Origin: a virus
Length of the DNA stretch: 12,099 nucleotides
Virus genome (UHGV): UHGV-1976345
Reading direction: 5' to 3' (one strand)
Below the pieces are notes generated by a model. It did no database searches. It was not told the DNA's origin and worked only from the letters and a program-made list of their open reading frames with translations. How positions within the stretch are numbered: position 1 is the first letter of the stretch; every line of letters starts with the position of its first letter. Shown here in pieces: positions 1 to 12,099 of the stretch. The translations under genes were made by a program, and so were the position numbers.

Positions 1-33
1 ACACTCTTTCCCTACACGACGCTCTTCCGATCT
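1..33. other. Illumina TruSeq adapter (technical sequence, not biological)
   Basis: Bases 1-33 read ACACTCTTTCCCTACACGACGCTCTTCCGATCT, identical to the 3' 33 nt of the TruSeq universal adapter / Read 1 primer site; genomic sequence starts at 34. Confidence 0.95.
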
Positions 34-236
34 CGCAGCTGCTCTGTCATGATTTCCACGTCTGCCAGCTCTGCCGCGAGGTCACTTTCGCTGCCCTGTC
101 CGTTCAGGTTGCGGGCAGCACTGGCCGCCAGTTCAGCGGCCTCTTCTGTCAGTTTCAGGGCCTGTGCATCCGGACCGAAACGCTGCAGGGCCAGACGGTA
201 GAGGGCGGTGCGGGTGAGTTCGGTGTTCCGTGTCAT
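12..236 (-). CDS. Hypothetical small phage protein, 3'-partial; possible all-alpha MazG-like NTP pyrophosphohydrolase fold
   Basis: ORF track 12..236 (-). ATG at 236-234 with GAGGG Shine-Dalgarno about 9 nt upstream. The last 7 residues (RDRKSVV) and the stop are encoded by adapter bases 12-33, so the true C-terminus lies off the contig. KLTEEAAELAAS and DLAAELADVEIM resemble the EExxE and ExxD helices of MazG/HisE-type domains (recollection, not searched). Confidence 0.45.
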   Translation of the reverse strand: MTRNTELTRTALYRLALQRFGPDAQALKLTEEAAELAASAARNLNGQGSESDLAAELADVEIMTEQLRDRKSVV

Positions 237-245
237 GCCGCGCCC

Positions 246-518
246 TCAGTGTTTCCGGTCGACGGTGATGTTCAGGCCGCCTTCTGCAGTGGTTTCCACC
301 CGGTACGGCACCTCGTGCTCTGCCGTGTGGGTGAGTGTGTTCATCAGTACCTGCAGGGCAGCCGCCTTTCCGTTGGTTGCCACAATGGCCTGAGCGGCCA
401 TGCTGATTAACGCCGTCAGGACGTGCTTCACATCGGTGAGGTCGCGGCATTCACACTCGTTGACATAGTGTTCAACAAGGGTTCGGGTGCGCTGTCGTGC
501 TTCCTGTGGGGTAATCAT
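246..518 (-). CDS. Hypothetical protein, 90 aa, phage early-region type
   Basis: ORF track 246..518 (-). ATG at 518-516 with GGGAGGA Shine-Dalgarno 7 nt upstream. Start overlaps the stop of the upstream zinc-ribbon ORF (ATGA) and the stop lies 9 nt from the next start, i.e. operon-style packing. No family recognised. Confidence 0.55.
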   Translation of the reverse strand: MITPQEARQRTRTLVEHYVNECECRDLTDVKHVLTALISMAAQAIVATNGKAAALQVLMNTLTHTAEHEVPYRVETTAEGGLNITVDRKH

Positions 519-709
519 TGCGCGTCCTCCCTGTCAGGGCGGGAGAATTCCATGACGGGCACGTCCGCCGAAAAATGCTGGCTGCAGTACGGACAGACCA
601 GGGTGACGCGTACCGCAGGGATGTGGTATTTACCGGACATCACGGCGATGGCGCTGTGAAAACGCAGGGCTGTTATATCCCTCTCGCACTGAATACATTT
701 AAATATCAT
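515..709 (-). CDS. Small zinc-ribbon protein, 64 aa, two CxxC motifs
   Basis: ORF track 515..709 (-). ATG at 709-707 preceded by AGAGGAG. Protein has C5-x2-C8 and C39-x2-C42 (CIQC ... CPYC). Family not recognised; Com-like and Ogr-like were considered but the spacing differs. Confidence 0.55.
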   Translation of the reverse strand: MIFKCIQCERDITALRFHSAIAVMSGKYHIPAVRVTLVCPYCSQHFSADVPVMEFSRPDREDAQ

Positions 710-806
710 AATTTAATTCTCCTCTGTTTCCGGCGTGCAGAAGCCCACGGCGCTGACGCCGGAATAAAAAAGAAAATGTTTTTATTAAATAATTAACGTG
801 GTGTGT

Positions 807-1235
807 TTACTGCACATCCTGCTCAAAAGGAATTATTGAAAAATCCTCAATGTCGCTTTTAATGGAAATACCGGGAATATTTTTCACGGCCTCTTTTTCA
901 TTCAGGATAGCGTCTTTATTTATTTCCTCTTTTACACGAATAAAGCGCTCAAGCCCCAGACGTCTCAGTAATTCAATAACATTATCCGCCCCACGGATAC
1001 TGACTGATGGCGGACGGTTTCGCCACTGCACCTCGCCGGTGGTGAGGTTAGCGAACTTCACCTTCCCGTTGCCGGTCAGTTCATCACGGTGCGCCTCACA
1101 CCATGTCTGGATACCGGACTGCAGTTCGGCCATGCGTTTTTTCAGGCTCTCGGTGACCCGGCGAAACATAAAACGGCGATCGAGGATGAGGTGGTTACCT
1201 TTGACAAATCGACAGGGCAGGCCAGACTGGCGCAT
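807..1235 (-). CDS. gam: Mu Gam-family host-nuclease inhibitor, probably 5'-truncated or with uncertain start
   Basis: C-terminal ~120 aa of minus ORF 807..1703 (WCEAHRDELTGNGKVKFANLTTGEVQWRNRPPSVSIRGADNVIELLRRLGLERFIRVKEEINKDAIL...GISIKSDIEDFSIIPFEQ) match the Mu Gam C-terminal region closely from memory. Stop TAA at 809-807. The nearest in-frame ATG is 1235-1233 with no convincing Shine-Dalgarno. Upstream of about 1250 the ORF is only the antisense shadow of the sheath gene. Confidence 0.7.
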   Translation of the reverse strand: MRQSGLPCRFVKGNHLILDRRFMFRRVTESLKKRMAELQSGIQTWCEAHRDELTGNGKVKFANLTTGEVQWRNRPPSVSIRGADNVIELLRRLGLERFIRVKEEINKDAILNEKEAVKNIPGISIKSDIEDFSIIPFEQDVQ

Positions 1236-1250
1236 CCGGTTGTCGCTAAT

Positions 1251-2327
1251 GTGGTGGTGAAAAACAGTGAAGGCAGCACCACCCACACGGCGAACACGGA
1301 CTACCGTGTTGATGCGCAGGCGGGTGTGCTCACGAACCTGGGCAAGGCTATTGAGGCCGGTGGCAGCGTGAAGGTGAGCTATGAGTACGCGGACCCGTCG
1401 AAGGTGACTGCGGCGGACATCATCGGCGGGGTGAACAGCGCCGGAAACCGAACCGGCATGAAGCTGCTTAACGACAGCTTCAACCTGTACGGCTATTTCG
1501 CCAAAATTCTGATTGCGCCGGTGTTCTGCACCCAGAAGAGTGTCGCAGTTGAGCTTATCGCCATGGCAGAGAAGCTGGGCGCGGTAACCTACATTGATGC
1601 GCCTGTCGGTACCACCTTTGCACAGGCTCTGGCAGGTCGTGGCCCGGAAGGCACCATCAACTTCAATACCAGCTCCGACCGCGTCCGTCTGTGCTATCCG
1701 CATGTGAAGGTATATGACCCGGTGACAAACACAGAGCGTCTGGAGCCGCTCAGCCAGCGTGCAGCAGGTCTGCGTGCCAGAGTCGATCTGGACAAGGGCT
1801 ACTGGTGGTCATCCTCCAATCAGGAGATTCTGGGGATCACCGGCGTGGAGCGCCAGCTGTCCGCGATGATTGATGACCCGCAGAGTGAGGTAAACCTGCT
1901 TAACGAACAGGGGATCACCACGGTATTCAGCAGTTACGGCAGCGGCCTTCGTCTGTGGGGTAACCGGACGGCAGCATGGCCAACGGTCACCCATATGCGT
2001 AACTTTGAGAACGTTCGCCGCACCGGTGATGTGATCAACGAGTCCATTCGTTATTTCAGCCAGCAGTACATCGACATGCCGATTACTCAGGCGCTGATTG
2101 ATGCACTGACGGAGTCGGTCAACGCCTACGGTCGCAAAATGACTGGTGATGGTGCGGTACTGGGCTTCCGTTGCTGGTTTGATCCGGCCCGCAATCCGGA
2201 GACGGAGCTGGCCGCCGGGCACCTGTTGCTGAGCTACAAATATACGCCACCACCGCCGCTGGAGCGACTGACGTTTGAGACTGAGATCACCTCGGAATAC
2301 CTGTTAACCCTGAAAGGGGGCAACTGA
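1251..2327 (+). CDS. Contractile tail sheath protein (P2 FI / Mu L family), 5'-truncated, start undefined
   Basis: Plus ORF 1089..2327. Sheath-like motifs run from about 1290 to the stop at 2325-2327 (VKVSYEYADPSKVTAADIIGG, LRLWGNRTAAW, CWFDPARNPETELAAGHLLLSYKYTPPPPLERLTFE). The conserved N-terminal ~100 aa of sheath proteins is absent, there is no in-frame ATG or RBS near the homology start, and 1089-1250 is antisense to gam. Confidence 0.85.
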   Translation: MVVKNSEGSTTHTANTDYRVDAQAGVLTNLGKAIEAGGSVKVSYEYADPSKVTAADIIGGVNSAGNRTGMKLLNDSFNLYGYFAKILIAPVFCTQKSVAVELIAMAEKLGAVTYIDAPVGTTFAQALAGRGPEGTINFNTSSDRVRLCYPHVKVYDPVTNTERLEPLSQRAAGLRARVDLDKGYWWSSSNQEILGITGVERQLSAMIDDPQSEVNLLNEQGITTVFSSYGSGLRLWGNRTAAWPTVTHMRNFENVRRTGDVINESIRYFSQQYIDMPITQALIDALTESVNAYGRKMTGDGAVLGFRCWFDPARNPETELAAGHLLLSYKYTPPPPLERLTFETEITSEYLLTLKGGN

Positions 2328-2848
2328 TGTCAAAGATTGAGATAAACCGCATCACGAATGCCAACATCTATCTGGATGGTACTAACCTGCTGGGACGGGC
2401 TGAGGAAGTTAAACTCCCCGATGTCTCCATGATTATGCAGGAACACAAGGCGCTGGGGATGGTGGGTAAGGTGGAACTCCCGGCTGGTTTTGACAAACTG
2501 GAAGGCGAAATCAAATGGAACAGCTTTTACCGCGATGCGATGCTGTCTGCCGCGAACCCGTACAGGTCGCTGGCACTGCAGTGTCGTTCCAGCGTCCAGC
2601 GCTACAGCTCGCAGGGGCTGATTGACGAAATCCCGCTGGTCACCTTCCTGACGATTATGTTCAAGAAGAACCCGCTGGGGACGTTCAAACAGCACGAGAA
2701 CGCCGAGTTCTCCAGTAGCTTCACCTGCACGTATATCAGACAGGTACTGGATGGTGAAGAGCTGCTGCAACTGGACTATCTGGCCAACATCTTCCGGGTC
2801 GGCGGTGTTGATCAACTGACTGACTACCGTATCAATATCGGGGGCTGA
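2327..2848 (+). CDS. Tail tube protein (P2 FII family)
   Basis: ORF 2327..2848, 173 aa. ATG overlaps the sheath stop (TGATG) with AAGGGGG upstream. C-terminal FTCTYIRQVLDGEELLQLDYLANIFRVGGVDQLTDYRINIGG resembles the conserved P2 FII-type tube C-terminus (recollection). Confidence 0.9.
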   Translation: MSKIEINRITNANIYLDGTNLLGRAEEVKLPDVSMIMQEHKALGMVGKVELPAGFDKLEGEIKWNSFYRDAMLSAANPYRSLALQCRSSVQRYSSQGLIDEIPLVTFLTIMFKKNPLGTFKQHENAEFSSSFTCTYIRQVLDGEELLQLDYLANIFRVGGVDQLTDYRINIGG

Positions 2849-2850
2849 CG

Positions 2851-3132
2851 ATGAGTGTTGAACTGACGGATAAAGGAAGACGATGTGCGGCACTGGGCAT
2901 GTCAAATGGTACGTGGTTTACCCTCCTTGATATTCCGGGGGTGGAAACCCTTTTTAATACCCGTAAAACCAATGACCCGATTGACTGCACACGTTCAAAG
3001 GCCCGCAAACTGGCGGATTTGATTGAAGCATGGGAGCCTCCCGACCACTGGTTCTCCGGCACCGGCAAATCTGAGGGAAAGACGCTTCTCATCGCTTTCC
3101 TGCGTAACTGCAAGGGGTTTCGCACTTGCTGA
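2851..3132 (+). CDS. Hypothetical 93-aa protein between tube and chaperone genes (possible moron)
   Basis: ORF 2851..3132. ATG sits 2 nt after the tube stop with GGGGG Shine-Dalgarno 7 nt upstream, and is followed by a hairpin terminator. No family recognised. Uses several rare codons (AGA, CGA, GGA, CTT), so coding status is not certain. Confidence 0.45.
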   Translation: MSVELTDKGRRCAALGMSNGTWFTLLDIPGVETLFNTRKTNDPIDCTRSKARKLADLIEAWEPPDHWFSGTGKSEGKTLLIAFLRNCKGFRTC

Positions 3133-3138
3133 CATCAC

Positions 3139-3165
3139 AGGGGCTCCGGCCCCTTCTTCTTAATC
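3139..3165 (+). terminator. Putative intrinsic terminator or attenuator
   Basis: Perfect 6-bp GC-rich stem AGGGGC (3139-3144) / GCCCCT (3149-3154) with 4-nt loop TCCG, followed by T-rich TCTTCTTAATCTCCTTT, 7 nt after the ORF93 stop. Confidence 0.45.
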
Positions 3166-3229
3166 TCCTTTAATATCCGTCACGCGCTTCTCCCGACATA
3201 CTGCCCTGAACTTACACAGGAGCACAATC

Positions 3230-3565
3230 ATGTCACAGACCCCATCCGATACTTTTAAATTGTCTTATCCCTTCACCACTGCTGCAGGCACCAGAATTGA
3301 GCAGGTTGAACTGAAACGCCTGACGGTAAAAGACCTGAAGCAGGTGCGCAAAATCAGCAAAAACCCGGCAGACTGGGACGAACCGCTGATTGCCCGCAGT
3401 ACTGGTCTTCTCCCGGAAGATCTCGACAATATGGATCTGGCTGATTACCTGCAGTTACAGAAACGATTTCAGCTCATCACGGGGATGGGTGAGAGCAACC
3501 AGGGCGCTGACGCAGGCGCAGGGGCTGCTGGCGAGATGGTTCCGGTTTCAGCCGGGGGAGATTGA
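3230..3565 (+). CDS. Tail assembly chaperone, gpE-like (P2 E / lambda G analogue)
   Basis: ORF 3230..3565, 111 aa. AGGAG 7 nt upstream of the ATG. Lies immediately upstream of the tape measure gene and has a Gly/Ala-rich C-terminus, as in E/G-type chaperones; an overlapping out-of-frame extension ORF is present. Confidence 0.8.
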   Translation: MSQTPSDTFKLSYPFTTAAGTRIEQVELKRLTVKDLKQVRKISKNPADWDEPLIARSTGLLPEDLDNMDLADYLQLQKRFQLITGMGESNQGADAGAGAAGEMVPVSAGGD

Positions 3566-3647
3566 TGCCCTCGATACTGACGATCTGGAGATGTGGCTGG
3601 AGCAGGCTGAAGAGCAAATAAAAAGCGAGTACGGCGACAAATCATAG
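3230..3647 (+). CDS. Putative frameshift product E+E' (tail assembly chaperone, long form)
   Basis: ORF 3390..3647 (codon starts at positions divisible by 3) overlaps the 3' end of E (codon starts at positions with remainder 2). Its last 30 codons encode an acidic, protein-like peptide (GEIDALDTDDLEMWLEQAEEQIKSEYGDKS) ending 75 nt before the tape measure start. A GGGGG run at 3554-3558, two codons before the E stop, is the candidate slip site. Offset is +1 or -2, not -1. Confidence 0.5.
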
Positions 3648-3652
3648 TACAG

Positions 3653-3673
3653 ACAGCCGCCAGTAGCGGCTGT
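3653..3673 (+). promoter_or_regulatory. Stem-loop between E' stop and tape measure start
   Basis: ACAGCCGC (3653-3660) / GCGGCTGT (3666-3673), 8-bp stem with 5-nt loop, followed by a moderately T-rich tract (TCTGCGTTATCCCC). The tape measure RBS GGAGG follows at about 3709. Confidence 0.3.
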
Positions 3674-3722
3674 TCTGCGTTATCCCCTCACGTCTTTTCA
3701 CCTTCCCCGGAGGTTAACCACT

Positions 3723-6674
3723 ATGTCGGGACAGTTTTCAGTCGGCGTTGTTATCGGCGGGATGATTGGCAGCACATTCCGTTCTGCAATGAGCGGTACC
3801 CGCCGTGCGCTTGATTCCCTGAGCGATACCTCACGCCGCCTGCAGGAACGTCAGAACGCTTTAACCCGTGCAACAGAACGTTATGGTCAACTGGGTTCTT
3901 CCCGGATGCAGCATCTCAACAGCGAGCTGCTGCGGGTAAGCCGCACCATGGAGCAAATTGAGCGCCAGCAGCGCCGTCTGTCAGCGGCATCCGCTACCAG
4001 TGATGCGCTGAAAGCTAACCGCATGGCGCTGTATGGTCAGGGGATTGAAGCGTATGGCATGGCACAGACTGTTTATCATACGGTTTCCCCTGCCGTTCAG
4101 CAGTCCATGTCTTTTCAGGACAAAATGATTGATATGTCGATCACCGCAAAATATGACAATAAAACGCGGGATGGACTTGCCGGACAGATAAAAGGCTGGG
4201 CGCTTAAATACAATCAGTATCAGGATGAGCTGCAGGAGGCGGTGGGTTCACTCATCAGCGACAATATTGATAATGTGTCAGATATCGGTTTTCTGATGCC
4301 GGATATTGCCCGCGCGGCAACGGCAACACGCACGTCTGCTCAGGACTGGGCAAAAGTGGCCGCAGTCTGGCAAAACTCCCTGAAAGGTGCGGCCAGAGAT
4401 TTTGGTGCCGTTCAGAATATTATGGCTTATGCCGGTGACCAGGGGTCATTTGAAATCCCGGATCAGGTCAAGTGGATGCAGTCCCTGGCCCCAATGATGG
4501 CGGGTATTGCCAGTGGAAAAGAGGCTGTTGCTGAAATCGGGGCCAGTCTCCAGATAGCAAAAATCGGTGCAGGTTCCACCGACGAAGCAGCCAATAATTT
4601 TAAAAACTTTCTTACCAAAATTTTTGCCCGCGATACTCAGAAACAGTTTGCTGATCTGGGTATTGATTTGCAGGGATCTATTGCGAGTTATAAAGCTGCG
4701 GGGATCTCTCCGATTGAAGGGATGTTGAGTGTTATAGAACGTTACCTCAATGCCAAAAGCCCCGAAGCGCTGGCCGGCTTCAAATCAGCCATGAAAATAA
4801 AGAATGATACGGCAAGAGATGAGGCACTTCAGGCTCTGGCGAAAAACTTTGGTCTGGGCGATATGTTCGCGGATATGCAGGTCATGGCATTTATCCGCCC
4901 GATGCTGGCCAACATGGACAGATATCGAGAGATCCGTGCCGGTGCTCTCAGGGCTGCGGATAACGATTTGCTTGCCAGTGCTTATGATCAGCGGCTGAAA
5001 TCTCCCCTTGAAGCCACTAAAACACTTATGGTCAGCAGTCGCGATCTGGCAATTACGCTGGGCGATCAATTAGCTCCATCTTTTATTTCTTTGACTCAGG
5101 AACTGCTTCCACTCATTCAGGGGGCAAAACACTGGGTAGCGACTCACCCGCAATTTGTCAGTGGGGCTTTTAAGCTCATCAGTGCGCTCCTTGCGATTAA
5201 GATAGCGACTGTTGGTCTCAAACTGGGGCTGAATCTCCTTATTTCCCCCTTTGTAAGTGTCTGGAAAAATGCTGTTTTACTTCGGGCCAACTGGCTTCGT
5301 CTGTCGCTCGCACTGGGGCAAGGCGGTAAGCTCCGCTGGCTGGTGACCGGATTTAGCGCCGTCGCCAGAGGAGCCAGAACACTGAGTGGCGTGCTCTCCG
5401 GGGGGCTGGTTCGCGGAATTATGCTCGCCGGACGTGCTGTTCTCTGGATTGGAGGTGCGCTGATGATGAATCCCATCGGTCTCGTTATCACCGCTGTCGC
5501 GGCAGCAGCTTACCTTATCTACCGCAACTGGGGGGCAGTCAGTGGCTGGTTTAAACAGCGCTGGGCAGACATTCAGGAAGCCTTTAACGGCGGCATTGTG
5601 GGAACTGGTAAGTTGCTGATTAACTGGTCGCCGGCAGGCCTGCTCTATAAAGCCTTTGCGGCTGCGCTGAAATATTTCGGCGTTGCTCTGCCGGCAAAGT
5701 TCACCGACTTCGGTGGCCATCTTATCGACGGTCTGATTAACGGTATCAAAAACAAATGGGGGTCGCTCAAATCCAGTGTAACCGGAATGGGTGACAGCAT
5801 CAGTAGCTGGTTTAAACAGTGCTGGGCTGACATTCAGGAAGCCTTTAACGGCGGTATCGCGGGAACTGGTAAGCTGCTGATTAACTGGTCGCCGGCAGGT
5901 CTGCTCTATAAAGCCTTTGCAGCTGCGCTGAAATATCTTGGTGTTGATCTGCCGGCAAAGTTTACCGACTTCGGTGGCCATCTTGTCGATGGTCTGATTA
6001 ACGGTATCAAAAACAAATGGGAGTCGCTCAAATCCAGTGTAACCGGAATGGGTGACAGCATCAGTGGCTGGTTCAGCGAAAAGCTGGGCATTCATTCGCC
6101 GAGCCGCGTGTTTATGGGCTTTGGTGACAATATCGCGCAGGGGGCCGCCATTGGCCTGCAGCGGACCACTCCGCTTGCAGCTCTGGCCGGGCAGCGAATG
6201 GCCAGTGAACTGCTCCCCAGAATGCCCGTGAGCATCCAGGGGCCAGAAATACGGGATAACACTTCAGGTGTTCGCTTCAGTATGCCGTTGCCCGATATCA
6301 ATGGGTTTATGTCGTCTGCTAAAAATGCGATCGGAGCCGTAATCAATAGTTTGTCTTCCATGCCCGCTATTCCGCTCTCCACCCGGGCATCGATTTTACC
6401 AGGGCAACGTCTGGCAAATGAGATGACACCGGATGTTCCCCGTATCCCCTCGCCTGAAATCCTGGCTGCCGGATATTCAGGCCGTGGTGCAGCTGCAACC
6501 GGCGGTGGAACGTCTGGTGGTATCCAGGTCAGCTTTAATCCTCAGTTTTTCCTCAATGGCAGGGAAACCACAGCGCCTGCAGGACTGACTGGTGCCCTGA
6601 ATATGAGTCTGCATGAGCTGGAAAAAATGCTGGAGCGTCTGCTGGCTCAGAAACAACGTAAGGAGTACCGCTGA
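3723..6674 (+). CDS. Tail tape measure protein (P2 T family)
   Basis: ORF 3723..6674, 983 aa. Position after the E/E' pair, Ala/Gln-rich helical N-terminal region, long hydrophobic Gly/Ala/Leu-rich central segment (about residues 480-600) and an internal tandem repeat are all typical of tape measure proteins. GGAGG 9 nt upstream of the ATG. Confidence 0.9.
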   Translation: MSGQFSVGVVIGGMIGSTFRSAMSGTRRALDSLSDTSRRLQERQNALTRATERYGQLGSSRMQHLNSELLRVSRTMEQIERQQRRLSAASATSDALKANRMALYGQGIEAYGMAQTVYHTVSPAVQQSMSFQDKMIDMSITAKYDNKTRDGLAGQIKGWALKYNQYQDELQEAVGSLISDNIDNVSDIGFLMPDIARAATATRTSAQDWAKVAAVWQNSLKGAARDFGAVQNIMAYAGDQGSFEIPDQVKWMQSLAPMMAGIASGKEAVAEIGASLQIAKIGAGSTDEAANNFKNFLTKIFARDTQKQFADLGIDLQGSIASYKAAGISPIEGMLSVIERYLNAKSPEALAGFKSAMKIKNDTARDEALQALAKNFGLGDMFADMQVMAFIRPMLANMDRYREIRAGALRAADNDLLASAYDQRLKSPLEATKTLMVSSRDLAITLGDQLAPSFISLTQELLPLIQGAKHWVATHPQFVSGAFKLISALLAIKIATVGLKLGLNLLISPFVSVWKNAVLLRANWLRLSLALGQGGKLRWLVTGFSAVARGARTLSGVLSGGLVRGIMLAGRAVLWIGGALMMNPIGLVITAVAAAAYLIYRNWGAVSGWFKQRWADIQEAFNGGIVGTGKLLINWSPAGLLYKAFAAALKYFGVALPAKFTDFGGHLIDGLINGIKNKWGSLKSSVTGMGDSISSWFKQCWADIQEAFNGGIAGTGKLLINWSPAGLLYKAFAAALKYLGVDLPAKFTDFGGHLVDGLINGIKNKWESLKSSVTGMGDSISGWFSEKLGIHSPSRVFMGFGDNIAQGAAIGLQRTTPLAALAGQRMASELLPRMPVSIQGPEIRDNTSGVRFSMPLPDINGFMSSAKNAIGAVINSLSSMPAIPLSTRASILPGQRLANEMTPDVPRIPSPEILAAGYSGRGAAATGGGTSGGIQVSFNPQFFLNGRETTAPAGLTGALNMSLHELEKMLERLLAQKQRKEYR
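5547..6068 (+). repeat. In-frame tandem duplication (2 x 261 bp) inside the tape measure gene
   Basis: Copy 1 at 5547-5807 and copy 2 at 5808-6068 both begin TGGTTTAAACAG; about 17 mismatches over 261 bp (roughly 93% identity by hand count). Encodes two 87-aa units, WFKQ(R/C)WADIQEAFNGGI...GMGDSIS(S/G). A third unit starts at 6069 (TGGTTCAGCG) then diverges. Confidence 0.9.
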
Positions 6675-7558
6675 TGTTTGCCGTACTGGGTGATATTGAG
6701 TTTGAGCTGATTACCTACTGGGACGGCTTCGAGGCCACGTTCGGCGTCGATTATGCGGAGCATGCCCGCATCGGGGGTAAGCCTGGCCTGCAGTTCGTCG
6801 GCGACAGGCTGGACGAAATCCAGATAACTCTGGTTTTCCATCAGCATTATTGTGTACCCGATGTGGAGCTGGCGAGACTGCGAACAGCCATGAAAGCCCA
6901 TCAGGCACTGGCGCTGGTCTTCGGCAACGGTGACTATCGCGGCTGGTTCGTGATTACCGATGTGACTGCAACCAGCGAGCAGACTGACAGTACCGGCAAC
7001 GTGCTGGCTGTCAGTGCCACCGTGTCTCTCCGGGAATACACCGGTGACCCGAAAAATCCTCTGCAACCACCGGCAATACGCACGAAGCTCCCGGGTGTCG
7101 GGGCGGTCTCCGGTGCCATACCTTCACCTTCAGGGGTGGCGCAGTTCATCCGCAACGGCGTCAACTATGCGAAACAGGCGCAGTCTGTACTCCAGACCAC
7201 TATCAGCGCCGTTCGGGTGACACAGAAAATGAAGGATAACCCCGTTGTCGCACTGACCCGTGTGCCGGGGCTGATGAGCGGACTGGGTAATATCTCCGGG
7301 GCTCTGGGGAAAAGTGTTCCGGCGTTTAACGCACTCTCTGAATCCATGCCCGATGCCATCAGTCTGGCCAGAACAGCCAGCGAAGCAGCCACGTATGTAC
7401 AGCAGGCACAGTCTGCGCTGAGTGGTGTGGACAAAAGAAATATTGCAGGTGCTCTGGATACCGTTTCCGGGCAGCTTAACGCCGCCGGCACAGCATTCAA
7501 CCGCATGTCTCCGGGATTAAGTGCAATGGCCGCCAGAATACTGACGAGGAGTGTGTGA
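6674..7558 (+). CDS. gpU-family tail protein with about 150-aa C-terminal extension
   Basis: ORF 6674..7558, 294 aa. ATG overlaps the tape measure stop (TGATG) with AAGGAG upstream. The N-terminal ~130 aa fit the P2 gpU pattern (LGxIEFE...IGGKPGLQFVGDRLDEIQITLVF...GWFVITDV). The remainder is Ala/Ser/Gly/Gln-rich and unassigned. Confidence 0.75.
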   Translation: MFAVLGDIEFELITYWDGFEATFGVDYAEHARIGGKPGLQFVGDRLDEIQITLVFHQHYCVPDVELARLRTAMKAHQALALVFGNGDYRGWFVITDVTATSEQTDSTGNVLAVSATVSLREYTGDPKNPLQPPAIRTKLPGVGAVSGAIPSPSGVAQFIRNGVNYAKQAQSVLQTTISAVRVTQKMKDNPVVALTRVPGLMSGLGNISGALGKSVPAFNALSESMPDAISLARTASEAATYVQQAQSALSGVDKRNIAGALDTVSGQLNAAGTAFNRMSPGLSAMAARILTRSV

Positions 7559-7770
7559 TGTTTCTTGAACATGTTACCCGTGACGGAGAGCGCTGGGATT
7601 CGCTGGCATGGCAGTACTACGGTGACCCGCTGGGCTATCCCCGGATTATTGCCGCCAATCCGCACGTGGCCATCACGCCGGTGCTGCCCTCCGGGCTGTT
7701 GTTACTGATCCCGGTGATTGAGGCTGAAGAAGCCCGTACAGAAGAGGATATTGCCCCATGGCTGAGATAA
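7558..7770 (+). CDS. Tail protein X (LysM-like, P2 gpX family)
   Basis: ORF track 7555..7770 (GTG at 7555; ATG at 7558 is the more likely start and overlaps the U stop). MFLEHVTRDGERWDSLAWQYYGDPLGYPRIIAANPHV fits the gpX LysM-like pattern. GAGGAG upstream. Confidence 0.85.
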   Translation: MFLEHVTRDGERWDSLAWQYYGDPLGYPRIIAANPHVAITPVLPSGLLLLIPVIEAEEARTEEDIAPWLR

Positions 7771-8912
7771 ACAGCACTGCGCAAGTCACATCAGCGTTAA
7801 CCGGCGTCAGCGATGTGCTGACACCGGTGTTCACTTTGTGGTATCTGCAGAAAAACATCACCTCTGATATCGCGCCTTATGTCACCCGTGTGACCTGGAG
7901 CGATAACATCAAAAATGAGTCCGATACCATTGAGGTGGAGCTGGACGACACCGATGGCCGCTGGCTGGATAAATGGTATCCGGGCAAGGGTGACACGCTG
8001 ACGCTGAAAATGGGCTATCAGGGCGAGAAGCTGCTGTCCTGCGGTACGTTCTCTATAGACGAGATCGAAGTGAGTTCGCCCGCTTCCGTTGTTTCTATCC
8101 GTGGGGTGGCCACCTCGGTTAACAGTGCCCTGCGGACTAAAACCAGTCGTGGTTTTGAGAACACCACGCTGGCAGCTGTTGCGGGGCGGATTGCCAGAAA
8201 GCACCGACTGAAACTGGTGGGCAGCATTGAGTCCATCAGAATCGACCGGGTGACCCAGTATGCTGAAACCGACGTGGGTTTTCTGCGCCGGCTGGCCAGC
8301 GAGTATGGTTATGCAGTGAAAGTGGTCAGTGACCAGCTGATTTTTTCTCATCTGGCCACACTGCGCAGTCAGGAGCCGGTCAGGCAGTTAAAACCGCAGG
8401 ATGTGGCCCGCTTTTCCCTGCGTGACACCATCAACCGGGTCTATAAATCTGCAAAGGTAAAACACCAGAAAAGCAGCAGTAAAAAACTGATCGTCTACGA
8501 AGCTGATGGTGGTACCCGTGAAAGCGACAAAAAGCTCAAAGGTGGTAAGGTTACCAGCGCTGACTCACTTAAAGTTAACAGCCGCGTCAGCGACCCGGAC
8601 AGTGCCCGGATTAAAGCGGATTCAGCACTGGCCAGACATAACGAATACCAGCAGAACGGCTCCCTGACGCTGACGGGAACACCTCAACTGACAGCAGGCA
8701 ACAAAATTGAACTGGTGGGTTTTGGGCAGTTATCCGGGCCATGGCTCATAACCACTGCCCGCCATGCGTTTGACCGTAACAGCGGCTACACCACAGAGCT
8801 GGAAGTGGCACGGGGGCCAGTCACAAGAGGGAAAAAACAAAAAACTCAGAAACTCACGGTTTATCACCCGGATGGCAGTACATCGACGGTGATTAAGGAG
8901 AAGAAAAAATGA
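7758..8912 (+). CDS. Baseplate hub / late control protein D (P2 gpD family)
   Basis: ORF 7758..8912, 384 aa, similar in size to P2 gpD. Start overlaps the X 3' end by 13 nt with GAGGA 11 nt upstream. Has gpD-like motifs (FSIDEIEV, YAETDVGFLRRLASEYGYAVKV) and sits after X and before V. Confidence 0.9.
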   Translation: MAEINSTAQVTSALTGVSDVLTPVFTLWYLQKNITSDIAPYVTRVTWSDNIKNESDTIEVELDDTDGRWLDKWYPGKGDTLTLKMGYQGEKLLSCGTFSIDEIEVSSPASVVSIRGVATSVNSALRTKTSRGFENTTLAAVAGRIARKHRLKLVGSIESIRIDRVTQYAETDVGFLRRLASEYGYAVKVVSDQLIFSHLATLRSQEPVRQLKPQDVARFSLRDTINRVYKSAKVKHQKSSSKKLIVYEADGGTRESDKKLKGGKVTSADSLKVNSRVSDPDSARIKADSALARHNEYQQNGSLTLTGTPQLTAGNKIELVGFGQLSGPWLITTARHAFDRNSGYTTELEVARGPVTRGKKQKTQKLTVYHPDGSTSTVIKEKKK

Positions 8913-9505
8913 CTGGTGTCACTCGTCAGGTCGGTACGGTCAGTGCCGTTGATGCCGACAGGGTTCAGGCCCGCGTTCGTCTGCCTGAATGCGATAACCT
9001 GCGCACAAACTGGCTTAACGTGCTGCAGCGCAATACCCAGGATAACAAAGATTACTGGCTCCCTGACGTGGGGGAGCAGGTTGAGGTGCTGCTCGATGCC
9101 AACGGCGAGGATGGTGTTATTCTGGGCGCGGTGTATTCAGACGTCGATAAACCACCGTTCAGTGACAAAAATATCCGGGGAACCCGGTTTGCTGATGGTG
9201 CAGAGTACAGCTACAACCGGAAGACGCACACTCTGACCATCCGGGGCGGCATTGAGCATATTGTCATTGAGTGTGGTGCTGATGTGGTATTGAAAACACA
9301 GAAAGCCACGATTGACGCACCGGAAACCGAACTTACCGGAGATCTGCGTGTCAGGGGTAAGCTGATTTACGAAGGAGGCATGGCGGGTTCTGGTGGTGAA
9401 GGTGTTACCGCGACCATCCATGGCAATATCGAGATTAAAGGGAATGCCCATGCCACGGGCAGTATGTTGTCTGATGGCGAAAACTCCAGCCACCACTCCC
9501 ACTGA
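8909..9505 (+). CDS. Baseplate central spike protein (P2 gpV family)
   Basis: ORF 8909..9505, 198 aa. ATGA overlap with D and AAGGAGA upstream. WLPDVGEQVEVLL and a C-terminal Gly-rich beta-helix-like region ending in the His-rich SSHHSH match the gpV pattern. Confidence 0.9.
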   Translation: MTGVTRQVGTVSAVDADRVQARVRLPECDNLRTNWLNVLQRNTQDNKDYWLPDVGEQVEVLLDANGEDGVILGAVYSDVDKPPFSDKNIRGTRFADGAEYSYNRKTHTLTIRGGIEHIVIECGADVVLKTQKATIDAPETELTGDLRVRGKLIYEGGMAGSGGEGVTATIHGNIEIKGNAHATGSMLSDGENSSHHSH

Positions 9506-9541
9506 GCTTTTTAAACGCCTTTAATATCAGCGTTCCCGCAC

Positions 9542-9559
9542 GGGGGCAATACTGCCCCC
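9542..9559 (+). promoter_or_regulatory. GC-rich stem-loop directly abutting the gpW start codon
   Basis: GGGGGCA (9542-9548) / TGCCCCC (9553-9559), 7-bp stem with ATAC loop; the W ATG begins at 9560. No T-tract follows, so it is not called a terminator. Confidence 0.35.
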
Positions 9560-9907
9560 ATGAAAACAACCTCAGTATTCTGGCAACCGACCCTGCAGGC
9601 TCCCGGCGAAATTGTCCGGGGGCTGGATGATATCCGGCAGGCGATTCAAATTATCCTGCGGACTCCCCGCGGCAGCGACCCGCATCGCCCGGAGTTCGGC
9701 AGCAATCTGCATCTTTATATCGACTGGCCTGTAGACCGGGCCATTCCGCATGTGGTGCGCGAATCCGTCGATGCCATCCGGCGCTGGGAGCCCCGCTGCC
9801 AGCTTATGTCAGTTAAACCCGCCGTCGACGGCGAACATCTTACGCTCCGGGTGAGCTGGAAAGGCTCAGACGGACAGACCCGGACTCAGGAGCTGCTATG
9901 GCGCTGA
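9560..9907 (+). CDS. Baseplate wedge protein (P2 gpW / T4 gp25-like)
   Basis: ORF 9560..9907, 115 aa. IRQAIQIILRTPRGSDPHRPEFGSNL and RRWEPRCQL match the GPW/gp25 pattern (ILxTPxGS ... WEPR). Confidence 0.85.
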   Translation: MKTTSVFWQPTLQAPGEIVRGLDDIRQAIQIILRTPRGSDPHRPEFGSNLHLYIDWPVDRAIPHVVRESVDAIRRWEPRCQLMSVKPAVDGEHLTLRVSWKGSDGQTRTQELLWR

Positions 9908-11001
9908 CAGAACCCGATTTTATTGAACGCGATGCCGACAAAATCACGGCAGAAATGATTGCGAAGTATGAAGCGGATACCGGCAAAACGCTGTACCCGG
10001 CACAGGCAGAACGTCTGCTGATTGATCTGTGGGCCTATCGCGAAATGCTGGTCAGGGTTGCGGTACAGGAGGCAGCAAAGCAGAATCTGGTCGCCTTTGC
10101 CCGTGAGCCGATGATTGATTACCTCGGTGAACTGGTCGGTGTATACCGTCTTGCCGCGCAGCCTGCCACTACCACGCTCCAGTTCTCCGTAGATGAGGCA
10201 CTGGCCATTGATGTGCTGATCCCGGCAGGCACCCGCGTCAGCGCTTCCGACAGCGTTATTTTTGCCACCGATACAGATGTGGTACTGAAGGCCGGATTGC
10301 TGCTGGTCAATGTCACGTCCACCTGTACCGAACCCGGTACCGCTGGTAACGGCTGGCAACCTGCGCAGGTCAGTCAGTTACTCGATGAGATTGATAACGT
10401 CGACCTGCTGGTGAGCAATCTGACGGCCAGTTCCGGCGGTTCAGAACAGGAAGACGATGACAGGCTCCGGGAGCGTATCAGGCTGGCCCCGGAGTCATTC
10501 ACCAATGCCGGAAGCCGTGGCGCATACCGCTTTCATGCCATGCAGGCCCATCCCAACATTGTCGATGTTGCTGTGCTTTCCCCGGTTCCCGGGACCGTAG
10601 ATCTGTATCCGCTGCTCAGTACCGGTCTGCCGGACGGCGGTGTTCTCACGCTGGTAGAGAGTTTCTGCTCTGATGAGAAAGTCAGGCCACTCACTGATAC
10701 AGTGCGGGCTAAAACACCAGTGAAGGTGGATTACACCATTGAAGCCAAGATTACGATCTATCGTGATCAGGATGCCAGGTCTGTAAAAGATGCCGCTAAC
10801 AGCGCCATACAGAACTGGGTGGCATCACGTGCCGCCACGCTGGGGCGCGATATTGTCCCCAGCCAGATTATCAGTGCATTGTCCGTTTCCGGGGTGTACC
10901 AGGTTGAACTGGTGACACCGGCACTGCGGGTGGTGGCAGAAAACGAATGGGCAAACTGTACGGCAATCACTCTTAACATGACTGGAGTGTCTGATGACTG
11001 A
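9898..11001 (+). CDS. Baseplate protein J (P2 gpJ / T4 gp6-like)
   Basis: ORF 9898..11001, 367 aa. Overlaps the W stop by 10 nt with AGGAG upstream. SFTNAGSRGAYRFHAMQAHPNIVDVAV and LGRDIVPSQIISALSVSGVYQVEL match conserved gpJ regions. Confidence 0.9.
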   Translation: MALTEPDFIERDADKITAEMIAKYEADTGKTLYPAQAERLLIDLWAYREMLVRVAVQEAAKQNLVAFAREPMIDYLGELVGVYRLAAQPATTTLQFSVDEALAIDVLIPAGTRVSASDSVIFATDTDVVLKAGLLLVNVTSTCTEPGTAGNGWQPAQVSQLLDEIDNVDLLVSNLTASSGGSEQEDDDRLRERIRLAPESFTNAGSRGAYRFHAMQAHPNIVDVAVLSPVPGTVDLYPLLSTGLPDGGVLTLVESFCSDEKVRPLTDTVRAKTPVKVDYTIEAKITIYRDQDARSVKDAANSAIQNWVASRAATLGRDIVPSQIISALSVSGVYQVELVTPALRVVAENEWANCTAITLNMTGVSDD

Positions 11002-11572
11002 GCCATTACAACTCCCGCCACCGCTTGAGGGTGATATCAGTCTCAGGACGCTGGGAAGACTGGCAGGACGGCTGGATAACATCGACCTGAGCGTACTGAT
11101 GGTCTTTCTCGTCGATATCGTCGACAGTTCCGCGCTGCCATGGCTGGGCGAGCAGTTCTCACTGTCTGGCGATGGCTGGGAGCTGGCGGAATCGGACGAT
11201 GTTCGCCGCATGCTTATAAAAGCAGCCATCGAACTGCACCGGTATAAAGGGACGCCGTGGTCAATCCGGGAAGTTATCCGCCGTTTTGGCTTTGGTGAAG
11301 TGGATCTGATTGAAGGCACAGGTCGTCTCAGTTACGACGGCAATCGCAGCTATAACGGACTGTTTGTTCATGGAGATGCAGCCGCCTGGGCAGTTTATCG
11401 CGTTATTCTGAAACAGCCCATTACTAACGATCAGGCCGCGATGCTGCGTCAGACGCTGGCTGCATTTGCACCGGCCCGCTGCCATCTGGCCAGCCTGGAG
11501 TATCAGTCTGTGGCCATTCGCTATAACAATACCGCCATCCATGATGGCAGTTATAACCACGGGAGCAGTTGA
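10994..11572 (+). CDS. Baseplate / tail protein I (P2 gpI family)
   Basis: ORF 10994..11572, 192 aa. Overlaps the J stop by 8 nt with GGAG upstream. ALPWLGEQFSL ... HRYKGTPWSIREVIRRFG fits the gpI pattern (LPWLA ... H.KGT). Confidence 0.85.
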   Translation: MTEPLQLPPPLEGDISLRTLGRLAGRLDNIDLSVLMVFLVDIVDSSALPWLGEQFSLSGDGWELAESDDVRRMLIKAAIELHRYKGTPWSIREVIRRFGFGEVDLIEGTGRLSYDGNRSYNGLFVHGDAAAWAVYRVILKQPITNDQAAMLRQTLAAFAPARCHLASLEYQSVAIRYNNTAIHDGSYNHGSS

Positions 11573-11574
11573 TT

Positions 11575-12099
11575 ATGGGAAACCTGAATGAAACAGAAAA
11601 GTGGGAAGAAAATATCTATCAACTGGAGACATCAGATCCGGTTCTGGGTGGTGCAGACGGGATATCAAATCGAGCCCCCCGGCAACTGGCAAACAGGACG
11701 AAATGGCTGAAGAAAAAAACGGAGGAAGCCGCACAGTCACTGGCTGAACACGTACGTTCCCGTAACCACCCGGACGCGACACTGACAGCTAAGGGGTTCA
11801 CCCAACTGAGCAGTGCCACCAACAGCACCTCTGAAACGCTGGCCGCCACACCAAAGGCCGTCAAGGCTGCATATGACCTGGCTGCCGGCAAGGCCCCCGT
11901 CAGCCATACTCACCCGTGGAGTCAGATAACGGGAGTGCCTGCTGCCTCGCTGACGGCAAAAGGCACCGTACAACTGAGCAGCGCCACGGACAGTCAATCA
12001 GAAACTGAGGCTGCCACGCCGAAGGCGGTCAAGGCTGTATACGACCTTGCAGCCGGCAAGGCGCCCGTCAGCCACACTCACCCGTGGAGTCAGATAACG
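11575..12099 (+). CDS. Tail fiber protein (P2 gpH-like), 5' portion only; runs off the window end
   Basis: ATG at 11575, 2 nt after the I stop, with GGGAG upstream; frame is open to 12099 and not in the ORF track because no stop is reached. Contains HPDATLTAKGFTQLSSATNSTSETLAATPKAVKAAYDLA, the conserved fiber collar repeat seen in P2 H and lambda-type side tail fibers. Confidence 0.85.
   Translation, partial: MGNLNETEKWEENIYQLETSDPVLGGADGISNRAPRQLANRTKWLKKKTEEAAQSLAEHVRSRNHPDATLTAKGFTQLSSATNSTSETLAATPKAVKAAYDLAAGKAPVSHTHPWSQITGVPAASLTAKGTVQLSSATDSQSETEAATPKAVKAVYDLAAGKAPVSHTHPWSQIT
11782..12099 (+). repeat. Tandem tail-fiber repeat (2 units of about 150 nt, 168-nt period)
   Basis: Unit 1 at 11782-11931 and unit 2 at 11950-12099, both ending GCCGGCAAGGC(C/G)CCCGTCAGCCA(T/C)ACTCACCCGTGGAGTCAGATAACG. 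The 5' halves differ at many synonymous sites; the 3' ~45 nt are nearly identical. The window ends exactly at the end of unit 2. Confidence 0.85.

What the first reader, a model, noticed from the sequence alone, without database searches (positions are those of the whole stretch)
1..33. Untrimmed Illumina adapter at the contig 5' end
Bases 1-33 are the TruSeq universal adapter 3' segment. The first ORF (12..236, minus) takes its last 7 codons and stop from adapter bases, so its C-terminus is artefactual. It also shows the contig start is a read/assembly boundary, not a biological end.
Basis: seen in the sequence. Interest (0 to 1): 0.4.

Follow-up and report, generated by a model that had tools for sequence, protein, structure and literature searches.

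The report
Leftover Illumina adapter at contig start
The first 33 bases of this metagenome contig are a leftover Illumina sequencing adapter, not biology; it gives the first gene a false ending, and the rest of the contig is an ordinary decayed E. coli prophage.

Summary

- **Adapter match:** Window 1-33 is an exact copy of the last 33 nt of the 58-nt TruSeq Universal adapter. Its reverse complement is the standard read-2 trimming sequence.
- **Sharp boundary:** Similarity to a BcepMu-like E. coli prophage (638 of 5,426 complete genomes) starts exactly at base 34. Three independent assemblies of the same prophage variant differ from the window only inside bases 1-33 and read on with native sequence.
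- **Spoiled ORF:** ORF 12..236(-) has 68 native residues plus DRKSVV* from adapter. The native protein has 101 aa. The false 74-aa product is already in the JGI/IMG protein set, on one 12,099-bp contig, so the window is a whole contig.
A second breakpoint lies at 1156/1157, where gam (minus strand) meets the tail sheath gene (plus strand), both truncated. It looked like a misjoin, but it is a real 20,576-bp prophage deletion. The identical junction occurs in six loci from six different ENA/Logan sample accessions, and three share the same paaK insertion.

This is a technical artefact on an ordinary defective prophage, so interest is low.

The parts
1..33 (+). Synthetic DNA: the 3' 33 nt of the Illumina TruSeq-type universal adapter (the read-1 primer site), with its 3' ...GATCT abutting the insert.
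   Evidence: Exact match. Equals the last 33 nt of the adapter printed in PMC12345228. Its reverse complement is the read-2 adapter. Only 10 of 33 positions agree with the native sequence at this place.
34..236 (-). Native 5' part (67 codons + 2 nt) of a 101-aa early-region gene (WP_000197789.1), cut off by the contig end.
   Evidence: 100% identical to E. coli AR_0067 and HSP60 from base 34 onwards. Native translation. RefSeq names it a nucleoside triphosphate pyrophosphohydrolase family protein. Pfam gives only a sub-threshold PRA-PH hit.
12..236 (-). Artefactual 74-aa ORF: 68 native residues + DRKSVV + a stop read from adapter bases.
   Evidence: The exact product is in the protein collection as P0031, source JGI/IMG, on one contig of 12,099 bp.
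246..518 (-). Intact 90-aa early gene (WP_021526141.1).
515..709 (-). Intact 64-aa early gene (WP_000576352.1).
807..1156 (-). 3' remnant of gam (host-nuclease inhibitor, PF07352): the C-terminal 115 codons + stop. The first 60 codons are deleted.
   Evidence: Other assemblies call it as a 120-aa product that starts at 1169 inside antisense sheath sequence.
1155..1156 (.). Deletion junction with a 2-bp 'GA' microhomology. It joins HSP60 prophage positions L013 6160 and 26737; 20,576 bp are missing.
   Evidence: The identical 50-mer junction is present in L014-L019, which come from six different ENA/Logan sample accessions.
1157..2327 (+). 3' part of the tail sheath gene, lacking its first 85 codons. 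Mechanical ORFs 1089..2327(+) and 807..1703(-) run across the junction and are hybrids.
2324..11572 (+). Intact P2/Mu-type contractile tail module: tube, tail assembly protein, tape measure (3723-6674), gpU-like, gpX, gpD, baseplate V, W/gp25, J and I.
   Evidence: One mismatch to HSP60 over 1155-12099. Annotation of HSP60 and PhiKM. Pfam families in related loci.
11575..12099 (+). 5' 525 nt of the tail fibre gene, cut by the contig's 3' end inside a 168-bp tandem repeat array.
   Evidence: The last 31-mer of the window occurs 3 times in the HSP60 fibre gene and the last 32-mer twice.

Best explanation
Bases 1-33 are untrimmed Illumina TruSeq-type adapter carried into a short-read metagenome assembly. 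A library fragment began at window base 34. A read that ran through that short fragment continued into the adapter, and the assembler kept those bases as the tip of the contig because it had no better-supported genomic continuation there. That last step is inferred. The gene caller then read the adapter as coding sequence and produced a false 74-aa 'complete' protein from a gene that really encodes 101 aa. Everything from base 34 onwards is genuine E. coli DNA. It is a defective BcepMu-like transposable prophage that lost 20,576 bp between gam and the tail sheath gene in one real deletion. The lost segment held the transposase A and B genes, the regulatory region, the lysis genes, the terminase, portal and head genes, and the 5' ends of gam and the sheath gene. 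The contig's other end falls in tail-fibre tandem repeats, a typical short-read assembly break.
For: - Exact 33/33 identity to the adapter, 0 of 200 shuffles matching; the reverse complement is the read-2 adapter.
- The same 33-mer turns up at 100% identity in GenBank records of unrelated phages (Bifidobacterium, Chryseobacterium, Klebsiella, Enterococcus, E. coli), three of them at or within about 20 bases of a record end. That is the signature of a contaminant.
- Homology to 638 E. coli genomes and to phage PhiKM begins at exactly base 34. HSP60 matches 34-1156 exactly, with 0 bases of genome match extending into the adapter.
- L015, L016 and L017, which carry the same deletion, differ from the window at 23 positions, all within 1-33. 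They hold no adapter and continue with native sequence.
- The false protein is recorded from a single JGI/IMG contig of 12,099 bp, which is the window length.
- The deletion is real. The junction-spanning 120-aa Gam' lies on 11 contigs. Six loci from six ENA/Logan sample accessions carry the identical junction, and one of those contigs is seen in 14 samples. L014, L015 and L017 share the same prophage-paaK host junction.
Against: There is no evidence against the adapter identity. The steps not shown are how the adapter entered the contig (read-through of a short insert versus another route) and why the assembler had no genomic path to the left of base 34; no reads or coverage data are available. 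The contig stops at exactly the 33-nt constant segment, which I cannot explain with certainty. It is where the i5 index would begin in dual-indexed adapters (my own knowledge, not tested). For the deletion, no complete E. coli genome (0 of 638 with the prophage) and none of three contig collections held the junction. However, the metagenome scan also failed to return the window's own contig, so those negative results are weak.
Confidence: 0.97

Rival explanations
1. Base 34 is a real physical DNA end, such as a phage or linear-molecule terminus or a recurrent break. Adapters would be ligated to it in most molecules, so the adapter would mark a biological end.
For: An adapter tip surviving at a contig end implies that the assembler saw no stronger genomic continuation (inference only).
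Against: Base 34 lies in the middle of a 101-aa gene in the early operon. All related prophages, and independent assemblies of the same deletion variant, continue through it. The prophage's left end is about 2.2 kb further on, next to paaK in L015.
Confidence: 0.02
2. The 1156/1157 join is a chimeric misassembly or a ligation chimera, a second artefact of the same poorly cleaned data set.
For: An adapter at the contig end shows that the reads were not cleanly trimmed. No place in any of the 638 prophage-bearing complete genomes spans the join. The junction 43-mer is absent from the viral, genome and metagenome contig scans. Both genes are cut in mid-frame with only 2 bp of overlap.
Against: The identical junction 50-mer is present in six loci from six ENA/Logan sample accessions (ERZ28648265, ERZ28576748, SRR29019508, SRR25011255, SRR12874595, ERR14095536), and one of those contigs is seen in 14 samples. 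The join is a simple colinear deletion in prophage order.
Confidence: 0.02
3. Bases 1-33 are native sequence that resembles the adapter by chance, or a natural element captured by the phage.
For: None.
Against: A 33/33 exact match has a chance probability of about 4^-33 per position, and 0 of 200 shuffles matched. The native sequence at this position is known and differs at 23 of 33 bases.
Confidence: 0.001

Closest known systems
Illumina TruSeq Universal adapter / read-1 sequencing-primer site (adapter contamination of assemblies)
   Same: Identical over the 3' 33 nt. It is terminal in the contig, with ...GATCT abutting the insert, as expected for the reverse complement of read-2 read-through.
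   Different: Only 33 of the 58 nt are present. The kit cannot be named, because many TruSeq-style adapters share this segment (my own knowledge).
BcepMu-like (Bcepmuvirus) transposable prophages of E. coli, e.g. Escherichia phage PhiKM (PQ738613.1) and the HSP60 prophage (NZ_CM137001.1, 552.9-591.0 kb)
   Same: 97.8-100% nucleotide identity. It has the same early genes (gam and its small neighbours) on one strand and a P2/Mu-type tail module on the other.
   Different: The window's variant lacks 20,576 bp, including the transposase, regulatory, lysis and head genes, and sits in paaK. No complete E. coli genome searched has either feature.
Cryptic or defective prophage remnants formed by internal deletion
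   Same: A single colinear deletion with 2-bp microhomology truncates two genes and is inherited in a lineage.
   Different: Nothing unusual was found.

Membership tests
Illumina TruSeq-type adapter contamination | Exact or near-exact identity to a published adapter sequence | tested here: met
   33/33 identity to the 3' end of the 58-nt TruSeq Universal adapter.
Illumina TruSeq-type adapter contamination | Located at a contig end, oriented with the adapter 3' end against the insert | tested here: met
   It occupies positions 1-33 on the + strand. The window is the whole 12,099-bp contig.
Illumina TruSeq-type adapter contamination | Similarity to the native genome stops exactly at the adapter boundary | tested here: met
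   BLAST matches start at base 34, with 0 bases of extension into the adapter.
Illumina TruSeq-type adapter contamination | Absent from independent assemblies of the same locus | tested here: met
   L014-L017 read through with native sequence, and none of L014-L019 holds the 33-mer.
Illumina TruSeq-type adapter contamination | Supported only by read-through reads in the raw data | not testable with these tools
   No reads or coverage data are available.
Chimeric misassembly at 1156/1157 | Junction private to one assembly or library | tested here: not met
   The identical junction is present in six loci from six ENA/Logan sample accessions.
BcepMu-like transposable prophage (Bcepmuvirus) | Mu-type early genes (transposase with an rve domain, AAA+ B protein, Gam, GemA, Mor) in the element | tested here: met
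   They are present in intact relatives. In the window itself only the gam remnant and small early genes remain. Mor and GemA are present in the fuller contigs L014-L017, and the transposase and B genes lie in the deleted segment.
BcepMu-like transposable prophage (Bcepmuvirus) | Insertion at many different host sites (transposition rather than site-specific integration) | tested here: met
   Flanks differ between genomes: wcaJ, sufC/sufB, paaK, and other neighbours in L003-L012.
BcepMu-like transposable prophage (Bcepmuvirus) | Close sequence relationship to a classified member | tested here: met
   97.8-98.8% identity to phage PhiKM, which its GenBank record classifies as Bcepmuvirus.

The most novel reading that the evidence does not exclude
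The surviving part of the prophage is retained in an E. coli lineage because it still does something, for example as a tailocin-like particle or a regulatory remnant, rather than being neutral decay. That part comprises Mor, GemA and the small early genes, plus a complete tail, baseplate and fibre module behind a 5'-truncated sheath gene. A 378-aa sheath ORF with an RBS-like GAGGATGAG just upstream remains open.
Probability: 0.03. Interest if true: 0.35.

Novelty: not a real feature. Interest (0 to 1): 0.07.

Why it matters
This matters only for data hygiene. The adapter should be trimmed and the first gene re-called as partial. The false 74-aa protein with the tail DRKSVV is already in a public protein collection, clustered with the real 100-101-aa family. 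The case also carries a caution. The internal gam/sheath join looks like a second artefact and is absent from thousands of complete genomes, yet it is a genuine inherited deletion. An untrimmed adapter therefore does not mean the rest of the contig is unreliable. Conversely, gene calls across a real deletion junction (the 120-aa Gam' and the 378-412-aa sheath) still yield hybrid or truncated products.

Tried and rejected
- **Chimera hypothesis for 1156/1157.** I favoured it at first. None of the 638 prophage-bearing complete genomes had a place spanning the join, and the junction 43-mer was absent from viral contigs, genome contigs and metagenome contigs. I rejected it after an exact look-up of junction-spanning ORF products found the 120-aa Gam' in JGI/IMG, Logan and ENA and on 11 contigs.
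- **Exact-product look-ups that failed.** The look-up of encoding contigs found nothing for the 74-aa, 412-aa and 298-aa ORF products. The 74-aa protein is nevertheless in the cluster table, so the two indexes differ. The longest-ORF starts were not the ones gene callers chose.
- **Metagenome scan.** The scan did not return the window's own JGI/IMG contig, so that negative result carries little weight.
- **Other adapter fragments.** I looked for Nextera, BGI, P5, P7 and the TruSeq index stem anywhere else, including the junction and the 3' end. Only isolated 10-11-mers turned up at 4803-4804 and 10979, which is chance level.
- **Tandem repeats.** Tandem Repeats Finder on 11400-12099 reported nothing. 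The 168-bp periodicity only shows when the longer HSP60 gene is laid out.
- **Pfam.** A search with the truncated gene's native product gave only a sub-threshold PRA-PH hit.
- **Assembler k-mer size.** I tried to infer it from the two contig ends. The 3' end fits a 31-mer branch node, but the 5' end does not give the same number, so I dropped the idea.

Full report
**1. The observation**

Window 1-33 reads ACACTCTTTCCCTACACGACGCTCTTCCGATCT. A pattern search finds it once, at 1-33 on the + strand, with 0 mismatches. None of 200 dinucleotide-preserving shuffles produced a match, even with three mismatches allowed. The TruSeq Universal adapter is printed in PMC12345228 as AATGATACGGCGACCACCGAGATCTACACTCTTTCCCTACACGACGCTCTTCCGATCT, and a string comparison shows that its last 33 nt equal window 1-33. 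The reverse complement, AGATCGGAAGAGCGTCGTGTAGGGAAAGAGTGT, is the 33-bp adapter that the Atria paper lists as appearing in read 2. The 33-mer itself occurs in 2,062 papers of the library.

**2. The sequence is foreign to the locus**

- BLAST of window 1-1500 against 5,426 complete E. coli genomes finds 638 genomes with a match. Every listed match begins at query base 34.
- The closest phage record, Escherichia phage PhiKM, also matches from base 34.
- In a three-way alignment the window agrees with E. coli AR_0067 and PhiKM at only 10 of the first 33 columns, and almost everywhere from column 34 on.
- E. coli HSP60 matches 34-1156 exactly, and the genome match extends 0 bases into the adapter.
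- The same 33-mer appears at 100% identity in GenBank records of unrelated phages of Bifidobacterium, Chryseobacterium, Klebsiella, Enterococcus and E. coli. In three of these records it lies at or within about 20 bases of a record end, which is how a laboratory contaminant behaves.

**3. Effect on the first ORF**

ORF 12..236(-) translates to 74 aa ending ...EIMTEQLRDRKSVV*. The native gene (WP_000197789.1, 101 aa) reads ...EIMTEQLRLQGMDRLIDFHKQKKLERLAARLGVMYTGDTEQ*.

- Native bases 34-236 supply 67 codons plus 2 nt.
- Codon 68 straddles the boundary and still gives Arg.
- Six codons (DRKSVV) and the stop are pure adapter.
- Thirty-three native residues are missing.

RefSeq annotates the native protein as a nucleoside triphosphate pyrophosphohydrolase family protein, but Pfam gives only a sub-threshold PRA-PH hit. 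The false 74-aa sequence is present in the large protein collection as P0031. Its source is JGI/IMG, and it is seen on one contig whose length is 12,099 bp. The window is therefore an entire JGI/IMG contig, and the artefactual protein has been propagated into a public protein set.

**4. The contig start is not a biological end**

In intact relatives the early operon continues past this point through DUF2786, GemA and Mor to the prophage left end. Independent assemblies of exactly the same prophage variant are more telling (see section 5). L015, L016 and L017 overlap the window from position 1 and differ from it at 23 positions, all inside 1-33. L014 shows the same 23 differences and reads through base 34 with the same native sequence. 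None of L014-L019 contains the 33-mer.

How the adapter got there is inference. A fragment started at base 34, a read ran through it into the adapter, and the assembler had no better-supported path to the left. I cannot test this without reads. The contig stops exactly at the 33-nt constant segment. From my own knowledge, this is where the i5 index begins in dual-indexed adapters; I only note the coincidence.

**5.

No place in any E. coli genome spans window 1156/1157.

- Window 34-1156 matches the early region and ends inside gam, on the minus strand.
- Window 1155-12099 matches the tail module and starts 257 nt inside the tail sheath gene, on the plus strand.
- The two matches overlap by the 2 bp 'GA'.

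In E. coli HSP60 the two pieces lie at L013 5038-6160 and 26735-37679, on the same strand and in the same order. Outside the adapter there is a single mismatch (window 12038) across the whole window. The window is thus the HSP60-type prophage minus 20,576 bp. According to the HSP60 annotation, the missing segment holds:

- the first 60 codons of gam;
- the B-like (ExeA family) and transposase (integrase catalytic domain) genes;
- the helix-turn-helix regulators and a DNA adenine methylase;
- the holin and transglycosylase genes;
- the DUF935 protein, the head morphogenesis genes and the major capsid gene;
- the first 85 codons of the sheath gene.

The mechanical ORFs 807..1703(-) and 1089..2327(+) cross the junction and are hybrids.

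**6. The join is a real deletion, not a misjoin**

At first an artefact seemed likely. The reads were evidently not clean, no complete genome has the join, and the 43-mer across it was absent from the viral, genome and metagenome contig scans.

I then enumerated alternative start codons for the ORFs at the junction and looked the products up by exact sequence. The 120-aa product MFRRVTESLKK... starts at 1169, so its first residues are antisense sheath sequence and its fifth codon spans the join. It is on record from JGI/IMG, Logan and ENA.

It lies on 11 contigs. Six loci were returned, from ENA ERZ28648265 and ERZ28576748 and from Logan SRR29019508 (a contig seen in 14 samples), SRR25011255, SRR12874595 and ERR14095536. 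In each locus where both are called, the 120-aa Gam' sits back-to-back with a 378-aa sheath remnant. All six hold the identical 50-mer across the junction.

A random ligation or assembly chimera would not recur in separate runs and samples, so the deletion is real and inherited. In L015 the prophage left end abuts the interior of paaK. L014 and L017 share that same host junction as far as they extend, which points to one lineage and one deletion event. No complete E. coli genome searched has the prophage at that site.

**7. What the element is**

The relatives carry an rve-domain transposase, an AAA+ B-like protein, Gam, GemA and Mor on one strand, and lysis, head and P2/Mu-type contractile tail genes on the other. 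They sit at different host sites: wcaJ, sufC/sufB, paaK and others. PhiKM is classified as Bcepmuvirus in its record. The window's copy is a defective remnant. It has no transposase, regulators, lysis genes or head genes, and it has truncated gam and sheath genes. The most likely reading is ordinary prophage decay.

**8. The other contig end**

Window 12099 falls 525 nt into the tail fibre gene, inside a 168-bp tandem repeat array. The window's last 31 bases occur three times in the HSP60 gene and the last 32 bases twice. This is a typical short-read assembly break. No adapter-like sequence is present at that end, at the junction or elsewhere. Only isolated 10-11-mers occur, at chance level.

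**9. Verdict**

The feature is a technical artefact (novelty class: not a real feature) sitting on a genuine but unremarkable defective prophage. Interest is low. Its practical value is to trim bases 1-33, mark the gene at 34..236(-) as partial, and treat the ORFs across 1156/1157 as remnants of a real deletion. The most novel reading not excluded is that the retained tail module is still functional or selected. I give it about 3%, because the sheath gene has lost its first 85 codons along with everything that lay upstream of it in the intact prophage.

Noticed in passing
window 1155-1157 (junction); ORFs 807..1703(-) and 1089..2327(+): There is a real 20,576-bp internal deletion of the BcepMu-like prophage, joining truncated gam to a truncated tail sheath gene with 2-bp 'GA' microhomology. 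It is absent from all 5,426 complete E. coli genomes searched. The identical junction is present in six loci from six ENA/Logan sample accessions, one of whose contigs is seen in 14 samples.
   Followed up: yes
L015:7906/7907; L014 and L017 contig ends: The deletion-bearing remnant is inserted inside paaK (the phenylacetate-CoA ligase gene). Three independent assemblies share the same host junction, and no complete E. coli genome has a prophage there. It could serve as a lineage marker.
   Followed up: partly
window 11743-12099; L013:37323-38162: The tail fibre gene contains about four to five tandem 168-bp (56-aa) repeats of the form ...SATxSxSETxAATPKAVKAAYDLAAGKAPVSHTHPWSQITGVP... The contig's 3' end falls inside this array. 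The single mismatch to HSP60 (window 12038) also lies here.
   Followed up: partly
L013:39386-40978 (HSP60 prophage right end, outside the window): Two tail-protein genes on the opposite strand, followed by a recombinase family gene, lie downstream of the fibre and fibre-assembly genes. The layout resembles a Mu G-segment-type invertible host-range switch.
   Followed up: no
GenBank phage records: PQ462667.1 81431-81473, MW202825.1 6019-6053, PQ571273.1 259-291, KT254133.1 59297-59329, OU509537.1 58535-58567, OR360270.1 1-33, OQ703102.1 40844-40875: The same adapter 33-mer is embedded in deposited phage genome records of unrelated hosts. In two of them it lies inside annotated genes ('tail protein', 'hypothetical protein'), which suggests adapter contamination or adapter-mediated misjoins in those records.
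   Followed up: no
L014:4477-7447 (ENA ERZ28648265) versus window 3723-6674: In this related contig the tape measure gene is split into two overlapping ORFs (590 and 419 aa), and register with the window is lost near window 4904. This indicates an indel in the tape measure gene of that sample. The PhiKM record also has a sequencing gap in this gene.
   Followed up: no
The tools disagreed. The metagenome-contig scan and the look-up of encoding contigs did not find the window's own JGI/IMG contig or its 74-aa product, whereas listing of cluster members did. Negative results from the first two should be read with caution.
   Followed up: partly
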